Source: Escherichia coli (GTDB taxonomy: Bacteria; Pseudomonadota; Gammaproteobacteria; Enterobacterales; Enterobacteriaceae). Taken from it: 64,000 nt of DNA. The notes beneath the pieces were generated by a model. The model had not been told where the DNA came from. It did not search any database and saw only the letters and a list, made by a program, of their open reading frames with translations. A program made the position numbers and the translations under genes. Within the stretch, counting starts at the first letter, position 1. Each line of letters opens with the position of its first letter. Below, one piece after another: positions 1,806-40,519 of the stretch. The DNA lies in assembly GCF_003334815.1 (NCBI RefSeq), contig NZ_QOWO01000002.1. One strand, written 5' to 3'.

Positions 1806-1838
1806 TAAAAAAGCGGCAACTCAATAAAGTTGCCGCTT
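1806..1838 (-). terminator. rho-independent terminator downstream of pflA (hairpin also faces ycaK)
   Basis: Stem AAGCGGCAAC/GTTGCCGCTT (1811-1820 / 1829-1838) followed on the minus strand by a T-run. Confidence 0.75.
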
Positions 1839-2780: not shown

Positions 2781-5063
<2,283 letters not shown>

Positions 5064-5117: not shown

Positions 5118-5975
5118 TTAATGGTGGTCGTTTTCACGCAGGTAAATGACCCAGTATGTCAACCCAACCAACAAACCACCACCGATAATGTTGCCGATCG
5201 TAACCGGAATCAGGTTATCAGTGATGAAATTCATCACGGTCAGGTGAGAAAAATTTTCCGGTGCAGAACCGACTGCGGTCCAAAATTCCGGGGATGCGAA
5301 GTCGCGGATTACAATACCCATCGGGATCATAAACATGTTTGCGATACTGTGCTCAAAACCGCTGGCAACAAACATCGCGACCGGCAGCACCATAATGAAC
5401 GCTTTGTCCATCAGGCTGCGGCCAGAATAACTCATCCATACTGCCAGACATACCATCAGGTTTGCCAGGATACCAAGACAGACGGCCTCAATAAAAGTAT
5501 GGTGCACTTTGTGGTCGGCGGTTTGTAGGACGTTTAGTCCCCATTGACCATTTGCGGTCATATACTCGCCGGAAAGCCACATTAAAAGTACAAACAGCAG
5601 TGCGCCGACCAGGTTGCCAAAATAGACATTTAGCCAGTTTTTCGCCAACTGACCCCAGGTGATGCGCCCACTCGCCTTAGCAACAACAATCAACACGGTG
5701 GAAGTAAAGAGATCGGCTCCGCAGACAACACAAAGAATCAGCCCCAGAGAGAAGCAAATGCCGCCAACCAGTTTTGCCATGCCGAAGGGCATTGTGCCTG
5801 TGCCAGTGGTTGCTGTGATATAGAAGACGAATGCGATTGAGATGAAAACACCGGCGGTAATCGCCAGATAGAAAGTCTTAAGCGGATGTTTCGTTGCTTT
5901 ATAGACACCCGCCTCTTCGGCCACTTTGGCCATTGCAGCAGGAAGTAAAAGATCAAAAGGGTTGTCAGCTTTCAC
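5118..5975 (-). CDS. focA: formate channel FocA (FNT family)
   Basis: ORF-track frame trimmed to GTG start giving 285-aa FocA (VKADNPFDLLLPAAMAKVAEEAG…); 54 bp upstream of pflB. Confidence 0.92.
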   Translation of the reverse strand: MKADNPFDLLLPAAMAKVAEEAGVYKATKHPLKTFYLAITAGVFISIAFVFYITATTGTGTMPFGMAKLVGGICFSLGLILCVVCGADLFTSTVLIVVAKASGRITWGQLAKNWLNVYFGNLVGALLFVLLMWLSGEYMTANGQWGLNVLQTADHKVHHTFIEAVCLGILANLMVCLAVWMSYSGRSLMDKAFIMVLPVAMFVASGFEHSIANMFMIPMGIVIRDFASPEFWTAVGSAPENFSHLTVMNFITDNLIPVTIGNIIGGGLLVGLTYWVIYLRENDHH

Positions 5976-6380: not shown

Positions 6381-8141
6381 TTATTTTGCCCAGAATGCTG
6401 CTTTGGCGCGCTGCAGCTTTTCGTAGGCCTTCAACAACGACTGATGTGCAGCAAACGCGTGCAGATCGCTATCTACCGGTTGCAGGCCGTAAAACGCCGC
6501 TTCGCCGCTCATTGCCGCACTGGCGGCTTCTACGGCATCTGCGCCGTACATGCGAACAAACGCATTCAGATATTGCAGCGGCTGGCGATCTTCTTCCTGT
6601 GCCAGTAATAACAACGTTTGCAGGCAGCGATAATAGTTGGCGCGTTCCGGACTAAATACTGATGAGTTAAACTCCATCGTCCATTCGGTCCAGACCAGAG
6701 CCTGTTCCAGATCGCCACCAGCCAGCGCCAGCATGGCTTTTAATTCACCGATACGCAGGGTGTACCAACCGTTATCCGACCCGGTCGCCAGACCCAACAG
6801 CTCACGCACGCGGGTAAAGTCATCAAAACCTTCTTCATCCAGTTGCTCGATGAGGTTCAGGTAATCTTCTTTTTCCCACTCGCTGCCTGGTAGCGAAAGA
6901 ATCGTTTCACGTAAATGGCTGCCCATACTGTTATTCGCGAGCCACAGATCTTCAGCCGGATAAATATCGGACATGCCAGGCACGATAATACGGCAAGCAT
7001 AAACGCCCAGATGCTCGTAATCGGCAATATAAACTTCTTTATCTTCTTTGTTGAAGATAGCCATCAGTGTGGCGAACTCTTCTTCCGTGGTGCCGGAGAA
7101 ATTCCAGTCCACAAACGGATAATCGGCATCCTGCTTGAACAGGTCCCAGGAGATTAAACCGCTGGAATCGATAAAGTGCGTTTCGAGGTTGGTATGTTCA
7201 GCGACTTCTTCATCATCGAAGGTTGGCGGAGTAAACACATCCAAATCTTTCAGGCCACGACCTTGCAGCAGCTCGGTCACGGTACGTTCCAGTGCTACGC
7301 CAAAATCAGGATGCGCACCGAAAGAGGCAAAGCAGGTACCGTTAGCAGGATTGAACAGTACCACGCAAATCACCGGATACTGGCCGCCAAGCGAACCGTC
7401 ATAAGCGAAGATTGGGAAACCCTCCGCTTCCAGCGTTTCGATGGCTTCAACTACTGCTGGGTAACGCGCCAGCACGTCTGCCGGGATCTCTGGCAGGCTG
7501 ATGCTTTCAGCAATAATGCGGTTTTTCACGTAGCGTTCGAAAACTTCAGACAATCCCTGAACGCGTGCTTCGTTGCGGGTATTACCTGCGGACATACCGT
7601 TGGAGACGTACAGGTTACCAATGATATTCATCGGAATATAAACGGTCTGATTGTCGGACTGACGCGTAAACGGCAGGCCGCAAATACCACGATCTTCGTT
7701 ACCGGATTGTAGGTCAATCAGCATGCTGCCGGTCAGTTCATTCTCCGGATCATAAAACGCGCGCAGACGGTCATCGAGCAGCCCTTCTGGCACATCGTCA
7801 TTTTCGGTCAGTGGGAACCATTTTTCGTTGGGATAATGCACGAACGGACCGTTGGCGATGGTTTCGCCCAGCCAGAAGTCCGCAAAAAAGTAGTTGGTTG
7901 AGAGACGCTCGAAATATTCACCGAGTGCAGAAGCCAGCGCCGCTTTCTTGGTTGCGCCTTTACCGTTGGTAAAACACAGTGCGCACTCTTTGTCGCGAAT
8001 ATGTACAGACCAGACGTTAGGCACGGGATTCAGCCAGGAGGCCTCTTCAATCTGAAAGCCGAGGTCTGAAAGTTTTTGCTGGAAGCGAGCGATGGAATCT
8101 TCCAGAGCGGCATCTTTGCCGGGGATAAATGTTTGCGTCAT
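6381..8141 (-). CDS. ycaO: YcaO-domain protein (ribosomal protein S12 methylthiolation accessory factor)
   Basis: ORF-track 597 aa trimmed to ATG giving 586 aa (MTQTFIPGKDAALEDSIARFQQ…); recognised as E. coli YcaO. Confidence 0.9.
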   Translation of the reverse strand: MTQTFIPGKDAALEDSIARFQQKLSDLGFQIEEASWLNPVPNVWSVHIRDKECALCFTNGKGATKKAALASALGEYFERLSTNYFFADFWLGETIANGPFVHYPNEKWFPLTENDDVPEGLLDDRLRAFYDPENELTGSMLIDLQSGNEDRGICGLPFTRQSDNQTVYIPMNIIGNLYVSNGMSAGNTRNEARVQGLSEVFERYVKNRIIAESISLPEIPADVLARYPAVVEAIETLEAEGFPIFAYDGSLGGQYPVICVVLFNPANGTCFASFGAHPDFGVALERTVTELLQGRGLKDLDVFTPPTFDDEEVAEHTNLETHFIDSSGLISWDLFKQDADYPFVDWNFSGTTEEEFATLMAIFNKEDKEVYIADYEHLGVYACRIIVPGMSDIYPAEDLWLANNSMGSHLRETILSLPGSEWEKEDYLNLIEQLDEEGFDDFTRVRELLGLATGSDNGWYTLRIGELKAMLALAGGDLEQALVWTEWTMEFNSSVFSPERANYYRCLQTLLLLAQEEDRQPLQYLNAFVRMYGADAVEAASAAMSGEAAFYGLQPVDSDLHAFAAHQSLLKAYEKLQRAKAAFWAK

Positions 8142-8270
8142 GAAAATCACTTTAGTCGTACGGAAAGCGCGCAATAATACGGGTTTTATCTCAAAGGCGC
8201 TATCACCGCCGCCATGCCGATGAACTGTTGACTATGCTTTTAGCGGATAAACCACGTTAAGAGCATAAAA

Positions 8271-8963
8271 ATGAAGGCGTTCGATCTCCACCGTATGGCA
8301 TTTGATAAAGTGCCTTTTGATTTCCTTGGCGAAGTTGCACTACGTAGTCTTTATACCTTTGTACTGGTCTTTTTGTTCCTCAAAATGACCGGAAGACGCG
8401 GTGTGCGGCAGATGTCGCTGTTTGAAGTTTTAATCATTCTGACGCTGGGATCAGCGGCGGGAGATGTGGCGTTTTATGATGATGTGCCGATGGTCCCGGT
8501 ACTTATCGTCTTTATTACTCTGGCGTTGTTATACCGCCTGGTAATGTGGTTGATGGCGCACAGTGAAAAACTGGAAGATCTTCTGGAAGGCAAGCCAGTT
8601 GTCATTATTGAAGATGGCGAGCTGGCCTGGTCGAAACTCAATAACTCCAACATGACGGAATTTGAGTTCTTTATGGAGCTACGATTGCGTGGCGTGGAGC
8701 AGCTGGGGCAGGTACGTCTGGCGATTCTCGAAACCAACGGGCAAATCAGTGTCTATTTCTTTGAAGATGACAAGGTGAAACCGGGTTTACTTATTTTACC
8801 CAGTGATTGTACGCAGCGTTACAAAGTGGTGCCGGAGTCGGCGGACTATGCCTGTATTCGTTGTAGTGAAATCATTCATATGAAAGCGGGGGAAAAACAA
8901 TTATGTCCGCGCTGTGCAAATCCAGAATGGACGAAGGCAAGTCGGGCAAAACGGGTGACCTGA
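8271..8963 (+). CDS. ycaP: inner-membrane protein, DUF421 family
   Basis: 230-aa ORF with hydrophobic N-terminal segments; divergent from ycaO; recognised as YcaP. Confidence 0.85.
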   Translation: MKAFDLHRMAFDKVPFDFLGEVALRSLYTFVLVFLFLKMTGRRGVRQMSLFEVLIILTLGSAAGDVAFYDDVPMVPVLIVFITLALLYRLVMWLMAHSEKLEDLLEGKPVVIIEDGELAWSKLNNSNMTEFEFFMELRLRGVEQLGQVRLAILETNGQISVYFFEDDKVKPGLLILPSDCTQRYKVVPESADYACIRCSEIIHMKAGEKQLCPRCANPEWTKASRAKRVT

Positions 8964-9161
8964 CAGTAAAAACATCGGCTTTTTGCTAATAATCCGAGAG
9001 ATTCTTTTGTGTGATGCAAGCCACATTTTTGCCCTCAACGGTTTTACTCATTGCGATGTGTGTCACTGAATGATAAAACCGATAGCCACAGGAATAATGT
9101 ATTACCTGTGGTCGCAATCGATTGACCGCGGGTTAATAGCAACGCAACGTGGTGAGGGGAA

Positions 9162-10250
9162 ATGGCTCAAATCTTCAATTTTAGTTCTGGTCCGGCAATG
9201 CTACCGGCAGAGGTGCTTAAACAGGCTCAACAGGAACTGCGCGACTGGAACGGTCTTGGTACGTCGGTGATGGAAGTGAGTCACCGTGGCAAAGAGTTCA
9301 TTCAGGTTGCAGAGGAAGCCGAGAAGGATTTTCGCGATCTTCTTAATGTCCCCTCCAACTACAAGGTATTATTCTGCCATGGCGGTGGTCGCGGTCAGTT
9401 TGCTGCGGTACCGCTGAATATTCTCGGTGATAAAACCACCGCAGATTATGTTGATGCCGGTTACTGGGCGGCAAGTGCCATTAAAGAAGCGAAAAAATAC
9501 TGCACGCCTAATGTCTTTGACGCCAAAGTGACTGTTGATGGTCTGCGCGCGGTTAAGCCAATGCGTGAATGGCAACTCTCTGATAATGCTGCTTATATGC
9601 ATTATTGCCCGAATGAAACCATCGATGGTATCGCCATCGACGAAACGCCAGACTTCGGCGCAGATGTGGTGGTCGCCGCTGACTTCTCTTCAACCATTCT
9701 TTCCCGTCCGATTGACGTCAGCCGTTATGGTGTAATTTACGCTGGCGCGCAGAAAAATATCGGCCCGGCTGGCCTGACAATCGTCATCGTTCGTGAAGAT
9801 TTGCTGGGCAAAGCGAATATCGCGTGTCCGTCGATTCTGGATTATTCCATCCTCAACGATAACGGCTCCATGTTTAACACGCCGCCGACATTTGCCTGGT
9901 ATCTATCTGGTCTGGTCTTTAAATGGCTGAAAGCGAACGGCGGTGTAGCTGAAATGGATAAAATCAATCAGCAAAAAGCAGAACTGCTATATGGGGTGAT
10001 TGATAACAGCGATTTCTACCGCAATGACGTGGCGAAAGCTAACCGTTCGCGGATGAACGTGCCGTTCCAGTTGGCGGACAGTGCGCTTGACAAATTGTTC
10101 CTTGAAGAGTCTTTTGCTGCTGGCCTTCATGCACTGAAAGGTCACCGTGTGGTCGGCGGAATGCGCGCTTCTATTTATAACGCCATGCCGCTGGAAGGCG
10201 TTAAAGCGCTGACAGACTTCATGGTTGAGTTCGAACGCCGTCACGGTTAA
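9162..10250 (+). CDS. serC: phosphoserine aminotransferase
   Basis: 362-aa ORF ([31 protein letters not shown]…), class V aminotransferase; directly upstream of aroA. Confidence 0.97.
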
Positions 10251-10269
10251 TGCCGAAATTTTGCTTAAT

Positions 10270-10295
10270 CCCCACAGCCAGCCTGTGGGGTTTTT
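10270..10295 (+). terminator. intercistronic hairpin plus T-run between serC and aroA (partial terminator / attenuator)
   Basis: CCCCACAGCC-AGCCTGTGGGG followed by TTTTT, inside the 70-bp serC-aroA spacer. Confidence 0.75.
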
Positions 10296-10320
10296 ATTTC
10301 TGTTGTAGAGAGTTGAGTTC

Positions 10321-11604
10321 ATGGAATCCCTGACGTTACAACCCATCGCTCGTGTCGATGGCACTATTAATCTGCCCGGTTCCAAGAGCGTTTCTAACCG
10401 CGCTTTATTGCTGGCGGCATTAGCACACGGCAAAACAGTATTAACCAATCTGCTGGATAGCGATGACGTGCGCCATATGCTGAATGCATTAACAGCGTTA
10501 GGGGTAAGCTATACGCTTTCAGCCGATCGTACGCGTTGCGAAATTATCGGTAACGGCGGTCCATTACACGCAGAAGGTGCCCTGGAGTTGTTCCTCGGTA
10601 ACGCCGGAACGGCAATGCGTCCGCTGGCGGCAGCTCTTTGTCTGGGTAGCAATGATATTGTGCTGACCGGTGAGCCGCGTATGAAAGAACGCCCGATTGG
10701 TCATCTGGTGGATGCGCTGCGCCTGGGCGGGGCGAAGATCACTTACCTGGAACAAGAAAATTATCCGCCGTTGCGTTTACAGGGCGGCTTTACTGGCGGC
10801 AACGTTGACGTTGATGGCTCCGTTTCCAGCCAATTCCTCACCGCACTGTTAATGACTGCGCCTCTTGCGCCGGAAGATACGGTGATTCGTATTAAAGGCG
10901 ATCTGGTTTCTAAACCTTATATCGACATCACACTCAATCTGATGAAGACGTTTGGTGTTGAAATTGAAAATCAGCACTATCAACAATTTGTCGTAAAAGG
11001 CGGGCAGTCTTATCAGTCTCCGGGTACTTATTTGGTCGAAGGCGATGCATCTTCGGCTTCTTACTTTCTGGCAGCAGCAGCAATCAAAGGCGGCACTGTA
11101 AAAGTGACCGGTATTGGACGTAACAGTATGCAGGGTGATATTCGCTTTGCTGATGTGCTGGAAAAAATGGGCGCGACCATTTGCTGGGGCGATGATTATA
11201 TTTCCTGCACGCGTGGTGAACTGAACGCTATTGATATGGATATGAACCATATTCCTGATGCGGCGATGACCATTGCCACGGCGGCGTTATTTGCAAAAGG
11301 CACCACCACGCTGCGCAATATCTATAACTGGCGTGTTAAAGAGACCGATCGCCTGTTTGCGATGGCAACAGAACTGCGTAAAGTCGGCGCGGAAGTGGAA
11401 GAGGGGCACGATTACATTCGTATCACTCCTCCGGAAAAACTGAACTTTGCCGAGATCGCGACATACAATGATCACCGGATGGCGATGTGTTTCTCGCTGG
11501 TGGCGTTGTCAGATACACCAGTGACGATTCTTGATCCCAAATGCACGGCCAAAACATTTCCGGATTATTTCGAGCAGCTGGCGCGGATTAGCCAGGCAGC
11601 CTGA
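10321..11604 (+). CDS. aroA: 3-phosphoshikimate 1-carboxyvinyltransferase (EPSP synthase)
   Basis: 427-aa ORF ([35 protein letters not shown]…), serC-aroA operon arrangement. Confidence 0.97.
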
Positions 11605-11650
11605 ATGAACAACGGGCAATAAATAGCCAAATCTTTCTTTATCAAAACGT

Positions 11651-11663
11651 CGGCACATTGTCG
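11651..11663. repeat. IS4 target-site duplication, left copy (CGGCACATTGTCG)
   Basis: 13-bp sequence immediately outside the IS4 left end, identical to 13090-13102. Confidence 0.88.
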
Positions 11664-13089
11664 TAATGCCAGTCAGTTAAGCAACTGACTGGCTCTTTTT
11701 CGGGGCTGTGGGGTATTTCCAGGGCCTCTCCTTTACCACTCTCGGGAAGGCCCTTTCCCTTCTTGTCGGTAATTTCACAAGTTGTCCCATACTTGCAAGA
11801 TCGCGCATCAGCTCCGGTATACGTCCCGGTGAAGCGCCCTGCAATGTCATCAGCATTCTCATCACCATTCCGCATGATTCTGAGAAACTCAGTTGATTCG
11901 GCCAGTAACCTTTCAGATGTTCCGCCATTTTAATTATCTGATATCTCACCAGATTATAAGCCAGTAAGACACCCCACAGCTCTTGCTCCACAAGCTCCGG
12001 TTTTTTACTTCTCAGCGTCAGCCTGCTCAGTTGCATCGTCTGTTTTATCTCCCTGTATCCCAGTTCGATTTCCCAGCGATGACTGTACAGATCCGCCATT
12101 TCTCCTCCGGGGAAGCGCATGGCGTCCGTCATCGACGTCAGCAGATGGCAGACTTTTCCTTTGCGCGTCACGGTCAGCAGGCGGGCAGTCACTTCATTTC
12201 CCAGTCCCGGCCACTTTTTTCGTGCCTGCGGGCTGGTTTTCAGCTTCACCAGATGATCGCCTTTACCCAGTTTTCTGATCTCTTCATATTGCGCTCCCTT
12301 TCTGAGAGGTATCATCCAGTGGCGGTGTTCTCCCGCCAGGCTCCAGGCATTTAACAGTCCCAGTGAGTAATAACCTTTATCCATTAACGTCAGAGTGTTA
12401 TCGCCGGTTTGTTCTATAAGTTGCTCAGCAAGCTCATTTTCGCTGTTCTTCATCGTGCCGAAGGCTGCAGCCGTCAGCAGATGGCTGGTCAGTTCCATCT
12501 GGCAGACCATTTTGACCTGCGGGTAGAGCGCCGGGTTCCCGGCATGTGTCTGGCGGGGGAAGGCTGCATCGTTCTCTGGTGTATCCGGTGTGCGCCAGAA
12601 CACACCATCGATGGCCAGCAGGGTCAGGCCGCACCAGTGCGGATGCGGCGTGGCGTTATGCCAGAGCTGCGCTGTTTTCGTGAACACGCGGCGGACAGCC
12701 TCACTTCCCAGGCGCTGGCGGGCCTGAATAACGGCACTGGGGGCAACGAAGGGGCGATTGCCCGGCAGCATGATGTCCAGGCGATTCACAATCTGGTGAA
12801 GAGGTTCTTTACGCTCAAGCGCCATGCCAACAATACACCAGACCATCATTTCGAGGGGAAGACGGCGCTTGCGTAGCGTTACAGTACCTGATTCGGCAAG
12901 GCAACGAGAGATGAGTTCGGGGTCGAGGTAATCCCCCAGAGAAGTCAGTGGGTTACGCAGAGAATCGTAACGGGATACCAGATCAAGAGCCTGTCCAATG
13001 TGCATAAAAAAATCCGGAAACAAGTGAGCGTTTCCGGATTCTTACACAGCCACTGGATCGGTCAACTGATCCTTAACTGATCGGCATTA
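11664..13089 (-). mobile_element. IS4 insertion sequence, complete 1426-bp copy
   Basis: Imperfect terminal inverted repeats (TAATGCCAGTCAGTTAAG at 11664; revcomp of right end TAATGCCGATCAGTTAAG ending 13089); single transposase ORF; flanked by identical 13-bp direct repeats. Confidence 0.92.
11677..13005 (-). CDS. insG: IS4 transposase (DDE family)
   Basis: ORF-track 448 aa trimmed to ATG at 13005 giving 442 aa ([40 protein letters not shown]…); stop 14 bp inside the IS end; uninterrupted reading frame. Confidence 0.93.
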
Positions 13090-13102
13090 CGGCACATTGT
13101 CG
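13090..13102. repeat. IS4 target-site duplication, right copy (CGGCACATTGTCG)
   Basis: 13-bp sequence immediately outside the IS4 right end, identical to 11651-11663. Confidence 0.88.
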
Positions 13103-13211
13103 GCGTTTTTTTTCGGACCTTGTGAGTCATTTTGATTAATGGTAGCGTCGCTTGTCAATGTAAGTTGTTGATACATAATATTTATATATGATTAATCAAC
13201 GGATGATTCAC

Positions 13212-13976
13212 ATGAAGAATACTAAATTACTGCTGGCGATTGCGACCTCTGCAGCATTACTGACAGGGTGTCAAAATACCCACGGTATTGATACCAATAT
13301 GGCTATCAGCTCCGGTTTAAATGCCTATAAAGCAGCAACATTAAGCGATGCCGATGCAAAAGCGATTGCCAATCAGGGCTGTGCCGAAATGGACAGCGGC
13401 AATCAAGTCGCAAGTAAATCCAGCAAGTACGGTAAACGTCTGGCAAAAATCGCCAAAGCATTGGGTAACAATATTAATGGCACGCCGGTCAACTATAAGG
13501 TTTATATGACCAGCGACGTCAACGCATGGGCGATGGCGAACGGCTGTGTTCGTGTCTACAGTGGCCTGATGGACATGATGAATGACAACGAAATTGAAGG
13601 CGTTCTGGGCCATGAACTGGGCCACGTCGCGTTGGGTCACTCGCTGGCTGAAATGAAAGCTTCTTATGCGATCGTTGCCGCACGCGATGCCATTTCAGCT
13701 ACCAGCGGTGTGGCTTCCCAGCTTTCCCGCTCACAATTAGGTGATATCGCAGAAGGCGCTATCAATGCTAAATACTCCCGTGATAAAGAGTCCGAAGCAG
13801 ATGATTTCTCCTTTGATCTGTTGAAGAAACGTGGCATCAGCACCCAGGGGCTGGTTGGCAGCTTTGAAAAACTGGCTAGCCTGGATGGCGGTCGCACCCA
13901 GTCCATGTTTGACTCTCACCCACCATCAACAGAGCGTGCGCAACACATCCGTGATCGTATCGCCTCTGGTAAGTAA
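13212..13976 (+). CDS. ycaL: M48-family zinc metalloprotease lipoprotein
   Basis: ORF trimmed to ATG giving 254 aa (MKNTKLLLAIATSAALLTGC…), lipobox LTGC, HExxH motif HELGH. Confidence 0.88.
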   Translation: MKNTKLLLAIATSAALLTGCQNTHGIDTNMAISSGLNAYKAATLSDADAKAIANQGCAEMDSGNQVASKSSKYGKRLAKIAKALGNNINGTPVNYKVYMTSDVNAWAMANGCVRVYSGLMDMMNDNEIEGVLGHELGHVALGHSLAEMKASYAIVAARDAISATSGVASQLSRSQLGDIAEGAINAKYSRDKESEADDFSFDLLKKRGISTQGLVGSFEKLASLDGGRTQSMFDSHPPSTERAQHIRDRIASGK

Positions 13977-14148
13977 ATCATTGTCATCTTTCGGGCTGGT
14001 CTTCTGCCAGCCCGCTATAATTGCGCAATAAATCCCCATCTGAATACAGACAAAACTGGTTTTTGCACACAACGTTAACGATTTGTGGCGTCGGCGCGTA
14101 TAATGCGCGCGGTTATGTTAACGGTACGCCTGTTTTAAGGAGATAAAG

Positions 14149-14832
14149 ATGACGGCAATTGCCCCGGTTATTACCATTGATGGCCCAAGCGGTGCAGGGA
14201 AAGGCACCTTGTGTAAGGCTATGGCGGAAGCGTTGCAATGGCATCTGCTGGACTCGGGTGCAATTTATCGCGTACTGGCATTGGCGGCATTACATCACCA
14301 TGTTGATGTTGCGTCGGAAGATGCGCTGGTACCGCTGGCATCCCATCTGGATGTACGTTTTGTGTCGACCAATGGCAATCTGGAAGTGATCCTCGAAGGG
14401 GAAGATGTCAGCGGCGAAATTCGTACTCAGGAAGTGGCGAATGCAGCTTCACAAGTCGCGGCATTCCCACGCGTTCGTGAAGCATTATTGCGTCGCCAAC
14501 GCGCGTTTCGCGAATTACCAGGTCTGATTGCCGATGGCCGCGACATGGGAACGGTGGTATTCCCTGATGCACCAGTGAAAATTTTCCTTGACGCCTCCTC
14601 GGAAGAACGTGCGCATCGCCGCATGCTACAGTTGCAGGAGAAGGGCTTTAGTGTTAACTTTGAGCGCCTTTTGGCCGAGATCAAAGAACGCGACGACCGC
14701 GATCGTAACCGAGCGGTAGCGCCACTGGTTCCGGCAGCCGATGCTTTAGTGTTGGATTCCACCACCTTAAGCATTGAGCAAGTGATTGAAAAAGCGCTAC
14801 AATACGCGCGCCAGAAATTGGCTCTCGCATAA
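14149..14832 (+). CDS. cmk: cytidylate kinase
   Basis: 227-aa ORF with P-loop [15 protein letters not shown] Shine-Dalgarno; directly upstream of rpsA. Confidence 0.96.
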
Positions 14833-14942
14833 GCGACCGAATTTGCAGTACCCCCGTTGCAATGGAATGACAGCGGGTATGTTAAACAACCCCATCCGGC
14901 ATGGAGCCAGGTGGACGTTAAATATAAACCTGAAGATTAAAC
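14833..14942 (+). promoter_or_regulatory. rpsA leader / translation initiation region lacking a canonical Shine-Dalgarno
   Basis: No AGGAGG-like motif within 15 nt upstream of the rpsA ATG (…CCTGAAGATTAAAC-ATG). Confidence 0.55.
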
Positions 14943-16616
14943 ATGACTGAATCTTTTGCTCAACTCTTTGAAGAGTCCTTAAAAGAAATCGAAACCCGCC
15001 CGGGTTCTATCGTTCGTGGCGTTGTTGTTGCTATCGACAAAGACGTAGTACTGGTTGACGCTGGTCTGAAATCTGAGTCCGCCATCCCGGCTGAGCAGTT
15101 CAAAAACGCCCAGGGCGAGCTGGAAATCCAGGTAGGTGACGAAGTTGACGTTGCTCTGGACGCAGTAGAAGACGGCTTCGGTGAAACTCTGCTGTCCCGT
15201 GAGAAAGCTAAACGTCACGAAGCCTGGATCACGCTGGAAAAAGCTTACGAAGATGCTGAAACTGTTACCGGTGTTATCAACGGCAAAGTTAAGGGCGGCT
15301 TCACTGTTGAGCTGAACGGTATTCGTGCGTTCCTGCCAGGTTCTCTGGTAGACGTTCGTCCGGTGCGTGACACTCTGCACCTGGAAGGCAAAGAGCTTGA
15401 ATTTAAAGTAATCAAGCTGGATCAGAAGCGCAACAACGTTGTTGTTTCTCGTCGTGCCGTTATCGAATCCGAAAACAGCGCAGAGCGCGATCAGCTGCTG
15501 GAAAACCTGCAGGAAGGCATGGAAGTTAAAGGTATCGTTAAGAACCTCACTGACTACGGTGCATTCGTTGATCTGGGCGGCGTTGACGGCCTGCTGCACA
15601 TCACTGACATGGCCTGGAAACGCGTTAAGCATCCGAGCGAAATCGTCAACGTGGGCGACGAAATCACTGTTAAAGTGCTGAAGTTCGACCGCGAACGTAC
15701 CCGTGTATCCCTGGGCCTGAAACAGCTGGGCGAAGATCCGTGGGTAGCTATCGCTAAACGTTATCCGGAAGGTACCAAACTGACTGGTCGCGTGACCAAC
15801 CTGACCGACTACGGCTGCTTCGTTGAAATCGAAGAAGGCGTTGAAGGCCTGGTACACGTTTCCGAAATGGATTGGACCAACAAAAACATCCACCCGTCCA
15901 AAGTTGTTAACGTTGGCGATGTAGTGGAAGTTATGGTTCTGGATATCGACGAAGAACGTCGTCGTATCTCCCTGGGTCTGAAACAGTGCAAAGCTAACCC
16001 GTGGCAGCAGTTCGCGGAAACCCACAACAAGGGCGACCGTGTTGAAGGTAAAATCAAGTCTATCACTGACTTCGGTATCTTCATCGGCCTGGACGGCGGC
16101 ATCGACGGCCTGGTTCACCTGTCTGACATCTCCTGGAACGTTGCAGGCGAAGAAGCAGTTCGTGAATACAAAAAAGGCGACGAAATCGCTGCAGTTGTTC
16201 TGCAGGTTGACGCAGAACGTGAACGTATCTCCCTGGGCGTTAAACAGCTCGCAGAAGATCCGTTCAACAACTGGGTTGCTCTGAACAAGAAAGGCGCTAT
16301 CGTAACCGGTAAAGTAACTGCAGTTGACGCTAAAGGCGCAACCGTAGAACTGGCTGACGGCGTTGAAGGTTACCTGCGTGCTTCTGAAGCATCCCGTGAC
16401 CGCGTTGAAGACGCTACCCTGGTTCTGAGCGTTGGCGACGAAGTTGAAGCTAAATTCACCGGCGTTGATCGTAAAAACCGCGCAATCAGCCTGTCTGTTC
16501 GTGCGAAAGACGAAGCTGACGAGAAAGATGCAATCGCAACTGTTAACAAACAGGAAGATGCAAACTTCTCCAACAACGCAATGGCTGAAGCTTTCAAAGC
16601 AGCTAAAGGCGAGTAA
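14943..16616 (+). CDS. rpsA: 30S ribosomal protein S1
   Basis: 557-aa ORF with repeated S1 domains ([26 protein letters not shown]…). Confidence 0.97.
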
Positions 16617-16626
16617 TTCTCTGACT

Positions 16627-16648
16627 CTTCGGGATTTTTATTCCGAAG
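16627..16648 (+). terminator. hairpin downstream of rpsA (putative terminator)
   Basis: CTTCGG-N10-CCGAAG with T-rich loop and short T-run. Confidence 0.45.
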
Positions 16649-16662
16649 TTTGTTGAGTTTAC

Positions 16663-16691
16663 TTGACAGATTGCAGGTTTCGTCCTGTAAT
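16663..16691 (+). promoter_or_regulatory. sigma70-like promoter upstream of ihfB (-35 TTGACA, 17-bp spacer, -10 TGTAAT)
   Basis: Consensus -35 hexamer at 16663-16668 and -10-like hexamer at 16686-16691. Confidence 0.6.
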
Positions 16692-16775
16692 CAAGCACTA
16701 AGGGCGGCTACGGCCGCCCTTAATCAATGCAGCAACAGCAGCCGCTTAATTTGCCTTTAAGGAACCGGAGGAATC

Positions 16776-17060
16776 ATGACCAAGTCAGAATTGATAGAAA
16801 GACTTGCCACCCAGCAATCGCACATTCCCGCCAAGACGGTTGAAGATGCAGTAAAAGAGATGCTGGAGCATATGGCCTCGACTCTTGCGCAGGGCGAGCG
16901 TATTGAAATCCGCGGTTTCGGCAGTTTCTCTTTGCACTACCGCGCACCACGTACCGGACGTAATCCGAAGACTGGCGATAAAGTAGAACTGGAAGGAAAA
17001 TACGTTCCTCACTTTAAACCTGGTAAAGAACTGCGCGATCGCGCCAATATTTACGGTTAA
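16776..17060 (+). CDS. ihfB: integration host factor beta subunit
   Basis: 94-aa ORF ([34 protein letters not shown]…), HU/IHF fold. Confidence 0.97.
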
Positions 17061-40491: not shown

Positions 40492-40519
40492 AAAAAAAGA
40501 GCCAGCGGGCGCTGGCTCT
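40492..40519 (-). terminator. rho-independent terminator after asnS
   Basis: AGAGCCAGC-GGGC-GCTGGCTCT with T-run on the minus strand (plus-strand A-run 40492-40498). Confidence 0.8.

What the first reader, a model, noticed from the sequence alone, without database searches (positions are those of the whole stretch)
10251..10320. Hairpin plus T-run inside the serC-aroA operon spacer
A GC-rich hairpin (CCCCACAGCC/GGCTGTGGGG) followed by TTTTT lies in the 70-bp gap between two co-transcribed genes. That is the signature of a partial internal terminator that lets serC be expressed above aroA. In this strain the IS4 insertion 1.3 kb downstream adds a second change to the operon's 3' architecture.
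Basis: partly seen in the sequence, partly recalled or inferred. Interest (0 to 1): 0.25.

Follow-up and report, generated by a model that had tools for sequence, protein, structure and literature searches.

The report
Known serC-aroA internal transcription terminator
The hairpin plus T-run between serC and aroA is the ordinary, conserved leaky transcription terminator of this E. coli operon, identical to the one in strain K-12, so it is real but already known.

Summary
The feature is real. In the 70-bp serC-aroA spacer (10251-10320) there is an 8-bp, not 10-bp, GC-rich stem: CCCCACAG 10270-10277, loop CCAGC, CTGTGGGG 10283-10290. It folds at -13.4 kcal/mol and is followed by TTTTTATTT. Hairpins of this class occur 4 times in the window, against 0.01 in shuffles. 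The spacer is identical to E. coli K-12 MG1655. The 55-nt core is perfect in 5309 of 5427 complete E. coli records. All 18 other Enterobacteriaceae sampled have a hairpin plus T-tail at the same position, with compensatory stem changes. I found no antiterminator, no Rfam family and no promoter for aroA. The best reading is a constitutive, leaky intrinsic terminator that gives more serC-only mRNA than serC-aroA mRNA. From memory, this was described for K-12 by Duncan & Coggins (1986) and Man, Pease & Winkler (1997); I could not retrieve either paper. The finding is therefore already known and of low interest. IS4 (11664-13089, 13-bp target duplication) sits inside aroA's own terminator hairpin and separates aroA from the GCG + T8 part. 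An 11-bp hairpin plus T-run at the IS4 end is the likely substitute terminator. This allele occurs in 40 of 5426 genomes.

The parts
9162..10250 (+). serC (phosphoserine/phosphohydroxythreonine aminotransferase), 362 aa, stop TAA 10248-10250
   Evidence: ORF list. NCBIfam NF003764 E=1e-166. RefSeq annotation of identical DNA.
10251..10320 (+). 70-bp serC-aroA intercistronic spacer, identical to K-12 MG1655
10270..10277 (+). 5' arm of terminator stem, CCCCACAG
10278..10282 (+). loop, CCAGC
   Evidence: The loop sequence varies between genera.
10283..10290 (+). 3' arm of terminator stem, CTGTGGGG
   Evidence: Covaries with the 5' arm.
10291..10299 (+). U-tract, TTTTTATTT (8 of 9 T), starting immediately after the stem
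   Evidence: The T-rich tail is kept in all 18 other Enterobacteriaceae sampled.
10308..10312 (+). aroA Shine-Dalgarno GAGAG, 8 nt before the ATG. Its columns are conserved in the 19-sequence alignment (first four invariant, fifth 90% or more). It lies downstream of the terminator.
10321..11604 (+). aroA (EPSP synthase), 427 aa
11644..11663 (+). Left remnant of aroA's own intrinsic terminator (AAAACGTCGGCACATTGTCG). 11651-11663 is the left copy of the 13-bp IS4 target-site duplication. This remnant lacks the GCG + T8 that complete the terminator in K-12.
   Evidence: Comparison with the K-12 empty site. Repeats. Sequence.
11664..13089 (-). IS4, 1426 bp. Terminal inverted repeats are TAATGCCAGTCAGTTAAG / CTTAACTGATCGGCATTA. 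The transposase ORF is 11677-13023 on the minus strand.
   Evidence: (NF033592, E=2e-90).
11668..11700 (+). 11-bp perfect hairpin at the transposase-distal IS4 end (GCCAGTCAGTT-AAGC-AACTGACTGGC) followed by TCTTTTT. Candidate substitute terminator for aroA transcripts in this strain.
   Evidence: Top terminator-like hit. It is the only stable structure kept in the centroid fold of the aroA 3' region.
13090..13113 (+). Right copy of the target duplication (13090-13102) plus the displaced GCG + T8 of the aroA terminator (13103-13113)

Best explanation
This is the constitutive, leaky Rho-independent (intrinsic) terminator inside the serC-aroA operon. RNA polymerase starts at the serC promoter and transcribes serC and then the spacer. 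The nascent RNA forms the 8-bp GC-rich hairpin (10270-10290) directly ahead of the U-tract (10291-10299). A large fraction of polymerases release there and produce a serC-only mRNA. The remainder read through and make the serC-aroA bicistronic mRNA, which is the only source of aroA message. The result is a fixed excess of serC mRNA, and hence of SerC, which serves both serine and pyridoxal-phosphate synthesis, over AroA. The same hairpin also caps the 3' end of the short transcript.

Shown here: the anatomy, its position relative to the stop codon and to the aroA ribosome-binding site, non-chance occurrence, conservation with covariation, absence of a competing structure, and identity to K-12.

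Inferred or taken from the literature: that termination actually occurs there and is partial.
For: Anatomy and chance:
- Canonical anatomy on the sense strand: an 8-bp stem with 6 GC pairs, a 5-nt loop, dG -13.4 kcal/mol, then TTTTTATTT with no gap.
- 4 such hairpins occur in 128 kb of searched strand, against 0.01 in shuffles.
- The stem starts 19 nt after the serC stop codon, which by inference is clear of a terminating ribosome. It ends 30 nt before the aroA ATG, upstream of the conserved GAGAG Shine-Dalgarno sequence.

Conservation:
- All 18 other Enterobacteriaceae species sampled carry a hairpin (dG -12 to -18.5) plus a T-rich tail, 15-21 nt after the stop and 29-36 nt before the ATG.
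- Most of the other Enterobacterales spacers of 40-350 nt surveyed do too, with unrelated stem sequences.
- Covariation on the MAFFT alignment: 94.7% of cells are paired, against 38-66% when the partner is slid. Pair 5 is G-C in 12 sequences and A-U in 5; pair 7 is A-U, G-U or G-C.
- Within E. coli the 55-nt core (hairpin to SD) is 100% identical in 5309 of 5427 records. In two of the most divergent spacers sampled, the substitutions fall upstream of the hairpin or in the coding regions, not in the hairpin, T-tract or SD.

Leakiness:
- The spacer is identical to K-12 MG1655.
- In K-12, aroA is co-transcribed with serC, a serC deletion lowers aroA expression, and a GcvB pulse lowers both mRNAs in parallel (PMC11878033; PMC3010111).
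- No sigma-70-like promoter lies between mid-serC and aroA. The terminator must therefore be leaky.

Own knowledge, not retrievable with the tools: Duncan & Coggins 1986 (Biochem J 234:49) and Man, Pease & Winkler 1997 (J Bacteriol 179:3458) described this site. The latter reported 80-90% serC-only transcripts, probably due to Rho-independent termination between serC and aroA.
Against: - No transcript 3'-end or coverage data could be examined. Term-seq and operon-mapping supplements that I could open contained nothing for serC or aroA.
- The key primary papers are cited from memory only.
- The U-tract is interrupted by an A at position 6, and there is no upstream A-tract.
- Termination efficiency cannot be predicted reliably from sequence, so 'partial' rests on the co-transcription logic and on the literature.
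- Some Enterobacterales (Photorhabdus, Xenorhabdus, Rosenbergiella, one Pantoea, Yersinia aldovae) have a stable post-serC hairpin without a T-tail. In those lineages the hairpin may act mainly as an RNA-stability element, so stabilisation could contribute in E. coli too.
Confidence: 0.9

Rival explanations
1. The hairpin is mainly an mRNA 3'-end stabiliser or processing barrier. The full-length serC-aroA transcript is cleaved in the A/U-rich spacer, and the hairpin protects the upstream serC part from 3'-to-5' exonucleases. Differential expression would then arise from differential decay rather than from termination, as with REP elements in malEFG.
For: Several Enterobacterales keep a stable hairpin after serC but no T-tail. 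A/U-rich stretches flank the hairpin. Any terminator hairpin also stabilises the released RNA.
Against: The T-tract immediately after the stem is kept in all 18 other Enterobacteriaceae sampled and is invariant in the E. coli genomes examined. A pure stabiliser has no need for it. The element is single-copy per genome and is not REP-like. From memory, the K-12 literature attributes the short transcript to Rho-independent termination.
Confidence: 0.06
2. The site is a regulated attenuator or riboswitch-like switch. Termination efficiency would be set by an alternative antiterminator structure, a ligand, a protein, or by serC translation. This would let aroA be uncoupled from serC according to conditions.
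For: The operon serves two or three pathways, so conditional uncoupling would be useful. The stop codon lies only 19 nt from the stem, so ribosome position could in principle matter.
Against: There is no Rfam match in or near the spacer. The hairpin is the only conserved structure in the spacer alignment. It stays in both the MFE and centroid folds when 140 nt of upstream serC RNA are included, with no competing pairing. The sequence upstream of the stem is the least conserved part of the spacer. The GcvB pulse lowers serC and aroA mRNA similarly.
Confidence: 0.03
3. The hairpin is a chance palindrome or a non-functional remnant, and the spacer only provides the aroA ribosome-binding site.
For: None beyond the fact that no experiment was run here.
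Against: The shuffle expectation is 0.01 per window, against 4 observed. The hairpin is positionally conserved with compensatory changes across genera, while the loop and the upstream spacer diverge.
Confidence: 0.01

Closest known systems
Internal Rho-independent terminator of the E. coli K-12 serC(pdxF)-aroA operon (Duncan & Coggins 1986; Man, Pease & Winkler 1997; cited from memory)
   Same: It is the same element. The 70-bp spacer in the window is base-for-base identical to K-12 MG1655 958742-958811, with the same flanking genes and the same position.
   Different: Nothing differs in the element itself. In this strain the operon's distal (aroA) terminator is split by IS4, which is not the case in K-12.
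Other intra-operon partial terminators that set expression ratios, such as the rplL-rpoB attenuator of rplKAJL-rpoBC and T1 in rpsU-dnaG-rpoD (own knowledge)
   Same: A hairpin plus U-tract lies between co-transcribed genes. The downstream gene depends on read-through. The upstream gene product is needed in excess.
   Different: The genes and sequences are different. No homology is implied and none was tested here.
REP/BIME-type intercistronic stabiliser hairpins, e.g. malE-malF (own knowledge)
   Same: An intercistronic hairpin is associated with higher expression of the upstream gene.
   Different: REP elements are multi-copy, have their own consensus and lack a U-tract. This hairpin is single-copy per genome and has a canonical U-tract.
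IS4 insertion into a terminator or attenuator-like site, e.g. the pheST attenuator, with target consensus AAA-N20-TTT (Mayaux et al. 1984; recalled from memory, not verified)
   Same: IS4 here has a 13-bp duplication and sits in an A4-palindrome-T8 site, which is the aroA terminator. Five other IS4 sites examined are also A-run / palindrome / T-run sites with 11-12 bp duplications.
   Different: This concerns the downstream aroA terminator, not the serC-aroA hairpin. That hairpin lacks the upstream A-run and is untouched.

Membership tests
Intrinsic (Rho-independent) terminator | GC-rich stem-loop (about 5-14 bp stem, 3-8 nt loop) on the transcribed strand | tested here: met
   8 perfect bp, 6 G-C pairs, 5-nt loop, dG -13.4 kcal/mol.
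Intrinsic (Rho-independent) terminator | U-rich tract beginning within 0-2 nt of the stem | tested here: met
   TTTTTATTT starts at the first base after the stem. On the opposite strand the tail is ATTAAGCAAAA, so the element is unidirectional.
Intrinsic (Rho-independent) terminator | Structure maintained by selection (conservation with compensatory changes) | tested here: met
   94.7% of cells paired, against 38-66% in slid controls. There are G-C/A-U swaps at two stem positions. All 18 other Enterobacteriaceae sampled have a hairpin plus T-tail at the same position.
Intrinsic (Rho-independent) terminator | RNA 3' ends at the U-tract; factor-independent termination in vitro | not testable with these tools
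   No transcript data are held for this site. From memory, Man et al. 1997 mapped serC-only transcripts ending here in K-12.
Intra-operon partial terminator | Flanking genes are co-transcribed from the upstream promoter | tested here: met
   The evidence is from the literature on K-12, whose sequence is identical. PMC11878033 reports aroA cotranscribed with serC, with both mRNAs falling together. PMC3010111 reports that a serC deletion reduces aroA expression.
Intra-operon partial terminator | No independent promoter for the downstream gene | tested here: inconclusive
   The consensus scan finds no sigma-70-like site between about 9100 and 10950 on the + strand. A consensus scan cannot exclude weak or alternative-sigma promoters.
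Intra-operon partial terminator | Termination efficiency between 0 and 100% | not testable with these tools
   Inferred from co-transcription plus the terminator anatomy. The figure recalled from Man et al. 1997 is 80-90% termination.
Regulated attenuator / riboswitch | Mutually exclusive antiterminator structure or a known aptamer family | tested here: not met
   No Rfam hit. No alternative conserved pairing. The hairpin persists in MFE and centroid folds with 140 nt of upstream context.
REP/BIME repeated extragenic palindrome | Multi-copy dispersed palindrome with the REP consensus | tested here: not met
   The 55-nt core occurs once per genome (median 1 place).
   1426 bp, inverted repeats and a 13-bp direct repeat. 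NF033592 E=2e-90. RefSeq annotates 'IS4-like element IS4 family transposase'.

The most novel reading that the evidence does not exclude
Termination at this site may not be a fixed leak. Read-through might be modulated physiologically, for example by growth rate or ppGpp, by NusA or NusG, or by how closely the ribosome finishing serC (stop codon 19 nt upstream of the stem) follows the polymerase. The terminated serC 3' end, an A/U-rich stretch plus hairpin plus U-tail, might also double as an Hfq-binding 3'-UTR RNA. Either possibility would make the element an active node that uncouples serine/PLP supply from aromatic amino-acid supply. Nothing here supports this; it is only not excluded.
Probability: 0.07. 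Interest if true: 0.35.

Novelty: already known. Interest (0 to 1): 0.08.

Why it matters
It matters little as a discovery. It is a textbook-style example of an internal leaky terminator that sets the expression ratio of two enzymes in a mixed-function operon, and it is already described for E. coli K-12.

Its practical value is for annotation. The serC-only and serC-aroA transcription units should both be expected in this strain.

The one strain-specific point is that the operon's distal terminator has been split by IS4. aroA transcripts in this lineage probably end at a hairpin inside the IS4 end, or else run antisense into the transposase gene. This is a small, testable example of an insertion sequence that targets terminators and brings a replacement with it.

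Tried and rejected
- Primary papers. I tried to retrieve Duncan & Coggins 1986 and Man et al. 1997 by PMC id and PubMed id. Neither is held, so their content is cited from memory and flagged as such.
- Full-text searches for 'serC-aroA terminator/attenuator/Rho-independent/pdxF' found only papers that confirm co-transcription.
- Genome-wide datasets. I looked for 3'-end or operon-mapping entries for serC/aroA in supplements. The supplements of PMC7815308, PMC12207403 and PMC6131387 were searched and had no occurrences. No supplement text is held for PMC6061677, PMC9023263 and PMC4161252.
- Expression datasets. My look-ups of two PMC ids (PMC4006352, PMC4888949), made to find protein-abundance or synthesis-rate tables, returned 'not held'.
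- Rfam scan of 8000-17000 at E<=1. The only hit was a chance-level PhrS match at 16687-16719, and there was nothing in the spacer.
- The extended MFE fold of the 70-nt spacer pairs GCUUAAU with GUUGAGU near the aroA SD. I rejected it as weak: it is rich in G-U and A-U pairs and is absent from the consensus fold of 19 species.
- My regex-anchored pair count put sequences with a fifth upstream C in the wrong register and under-counted pairing. I discarded it in favour of the per-sequence RNAfold survey and the MAFFT-based counts.
- A literature search for IS4 target specificity returned nothing useful. I replaced it with a direct look at five other IS4 sites.

Full report
OBSERVATION

The window is Escherichia coli chromosome. 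ORF listing, NCBIfam models and RefSeq annotation of near-identical genomes give this gene order:
- ycaP 8271-8963
- serC 9162-10250
- aroA 10321-11604
- an IS4 transposase on the minus strand, 11677-13023
- ycaL/loiP 13188-13976
- cmk 14149-14832
- rpsA 14943-16616

The hairpin is there, but the arms were misquoted. The sequence reads CCCCACAG-CCAGC-CTGTGGGG. That is an 8-bp perfect stem (10270-10277 with 10283-10290, six G-C pairs) and a 5-nt loop. TTTTTATTT (10291-10299) follows with no gap.

The isolated hairpin folds at -13.4 kcal/mol. It is the core of both the MFE and the centroid structure of the spacer.

IS IT MORE THAN CHANCE?

I counted hairpins with at least 8 perfect pairs, at least 6 G-C pairs, a 3-8 nt loop and a T-rich tail starting TTT. 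There are four on both strands of the 64-kb window. The mean in 100 dinucleotide-preserving shuffles is 0.01. The criteria were chosen after seeing the hairpin, but the margin is large. The looser built-in scan ranks this site second of 23 in the 9-kb neighbourhood.

WHAT IT IS: COMPARATIVE EVIDENCE

The spacer is base-for-base identical to E. coli K-12 MG1655.

Within E. coli:
- All 5426 complete genomes contain the region.
- The 55-nt core from just upstream of the stem to the base before the aroA ATG is 100% identical in 5309 of 5427 records, and is single-copy.
- In two of the most divergent spacers sampled, the substitutions fall in serC, in the spacer upstream of the stem, or in aroA. 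None falls in the stem, the T-tract or the Shine-Dalgarno region.

Beyond E. coli, a scan of one genome per species with AroA returned 80 loci.
- serC lies immediately upstream of aroA throughout the Enterobacterales but not in the Vibrionaceae.
- All 18 other Enterobacteriaceae species have a hairpin of -12 to -18.5 kcal/mol followed by a T-rich tail. It starts 15-21 nt after the serC stop and ends 29-36 nt before the aroA ATG.
- The stems differ by compensatory changes. Examples are CCCCACAG/CTGTGGGG, CCCCGCAG/CTGCGGGG, CCCCTGCAG/CTGCAGGGG, CCCCACGGT/GCCGTGGGG and CCCCGCGGG/CTCGCGGGG.
- On the unbiased MAFFT alignment, 94.7% of cells are standard pairs, against 38-66% when the 3' partner is slid by 1-3 columns. 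Pair 5 is G-C in 12 sequences and A-U in 5.
- The loop and the spacer upstream of the stem are poorly conserved, while the GAGAG Shine-Dalgarno columns are conserved (the first four invariant).
- Erwiniaceae, Pectobacteriaceae, Yersiniaceae and most Morganellaceae carry sequence-unrelated hairpins with T-tails in the same gap.
- Photorhabdus, Xenorhabdus, Rosenbergiella, one Pantoea and Yersinia aldovae have a stable hairpin without a T-tail.

MECHANISM

The anatomy is that of a unidirectional intrinsic terminator. The opposite-strand tail is ATTAAGCAAAA, so it would not terminate in that direction.

The stem starts 19 nt past the stop codon. By inference from the usual ribosome footprint, a ribosome terminating on serC should not prevent folding.

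There is no sigma-70-like promoter between mid-serC and aroA. K-12 work retrievable here states three things:
- aroA is co-transcribed with serC.
- serC and aroA mRNAs fall together after a GcvB pulse that targets the serC 5' UTR (PMC11878033).
- Deleting serC lowers aroA expression (PMC3010111).

A canonical terminator sits between two genes that are nevertheless co-transcribed, so it must be leaky. This makes it a partial internal terminator that yields more serC-only than serC-aroA message.

From my own memory, not verifiable with the tools, this is what Man, Pease & Winkler (J Bacteriol 179:3458, 1997) reported for K-12. They found that 80-90% of serC transcripts are single-gene mRNAs, probably from Rho-independent termination between serC and aroA, with the co-transcript ending at a second terminator after aroA. 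Duncan & Coggins (Biochem J 234:49, 1986) defined the operon.

RIVALS

A regulated attenuator is unlikely.
- There is no Rfam family in the region.
- The hairpin is the only conserved structure.
- It persists in MFE and centroid folds with 140 nt of upstream RNA and no competitor.

A pure RNA-stabiliser role does not explain the T-tract being kept immediately after the stem in every Enterobacteriaceae species sampled. It may still apply in the lineages that lack a T-tail, and the hairpin will stabilise the short RNA in any case.

It is not a REP element, because it is single-copy.

Chance is excluded by conservation and covariation.

THE IS4 REMARK

Comparison with the K-12 empty site shows that IS4 occupies 11664-13089. 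It is 1426 bp, with terminal repeats TAATGCCAGTCAGTTAAG / CTTAACTGATCGGCATTA and a 13-bp target duplication CGGCACATTGTCG at 11651-11663 and 13090-13102.

The target is aroA's own intrinsic terminator. In K-12 this reads AAAACGTCGGCACATTGTCGGCGTTTTTTTT, at about -14 kcal/mol including the A/U extension. On the aroA side the stem now lacks GCG + T8, which sit 1.4 kb away at 13103-13113.

The first stable structure an aroA transcript now meets is an 11-bp perfect hairpin at the IS4 end (11668-11693) followed by TCTTTTT. This is the top terminator-like hit in the region and the only element kept in the centroid fold. I infer that it acts as the substitute terminator. This is not shown.

The IS4-bearing allele occurs in 40 of 5426 complete genomes, including NCTC86.

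However, IS4 is the only change to the operon's 3' architecture in this strain, because the serC-aroA hairpin is the wild-type state.

Five other IS4 insertion sites, from different genomes, reconstruct to A-run / palindrome / T-run sites with 11-12 bp duplications. Two of those five are obvious bidirectional terminators (tynA/feaB, and pstS-like/glgP). This fits the AAA-N20-TTT IS4 target consensus that I recall from Mayaux et al. 1984. It would also explain why IS4 hit the aroA terminator, which has A4 upstream, and not the internal one, which has no A-run.

VERDICT

The element is already known and is identical to the K-12 one. Interest is low.

Noticed in passing
window 11644-13113: IS4 (11664-13089) is inserted inside the stem of aroA's own intrinsic terminator, with a 13-bp target duplication (11651-11663 and 13090-13102). 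The GCG + T8 half of the terminator is displaced to 13103-13113. An 11-bp hairpin plus TCTTTTT at the IS4 end (11668-11700) is the likely replacement terminator. The allele is present in 40 of 5426 complete E. coli genomes, including NCTC86.
   Followed up: yes
L086-L090 (IS4 at 401-1826 of each locus) and the window: In six independent IS4 insertion sites, the reconstructed empty site is an A-run / imperfect palindrome / T-run with an 11-13 bp duplication. Three of the six are evident intrinsic terminators: aroA, tynA/feaB, and pstS-like/glgP. IS4 therefore appears to target terminator-like DNA. The serC-aroA internal terminator lacks the upstream A-run.
   Followed up: partly
L083 (E. coli P31_YH1_02.21): about 3079-3790 and about 5166-5875: In this strain an IS200C copy sits within the T-tract immediately after the serC-aroA terminator hairpin (GGGGTTTTTATT|GTGCACAG...). 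A second IS200C sits immediately after the T8 of the aroA terminator. Both terminators of the operon are therefore IS200 targets. Three of 5426 genomes lack a match covering at least 80% of the spacer query; this is the only one I examined.
   Followed up: partly
window 33740-33759 (+), about 40499-40518 (-), about 1813-1836 (-): These are the three other strong terminator-like hairpins (at least 8 perfect bp, at least 6 GC pairs, T-rich tail) in the 64-kb window. Minus-strand coordinates were converted from reverse-complement indices. Their gene context was not examined.
   Followed up: no
window 14075-14111: A perfect 7-bp GC palindrome, GCGCGTATAATGCGCGC, contains a consensus TATAAT that is also called as a promoter-like -10 (TTAACG-18-TATAAT). 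It lies just upstream of cmk, so the -10 hexamer is embedded in a hairpin.
   Followed up: no
L038 (Budvicia), L075 (Psychromonas), L076 (Edwardsiella ictaluri): serC and aroA are separated by 0.8-1.2 kb instead of about 70-130 bp. Presumably an extra gene lies between them; the serC > hisHb > aroF (=aroA) synteny described in PMC1173090 would fit. Not analysed.
   Followed up: no
window 9987-10448 (-): A 153-aa mechanical ORF (TTG start) runs antisense across the serC 3' end, the spacer and the aroA 5' end. It is not annotated in the NCTC86 or MG1655 RefSeq records and there is no reason to treat it as a gene.
   Followed up: partly
window 16687-16719 (+): A sub-threshold Rfam PhrS match (16.8 bits against a gathering score of 37, E=0.97) lies downstream of rpsA, next to a terminator-like hairpin at 16627-16648. 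It is almost certainly chance.
   Followed up: no
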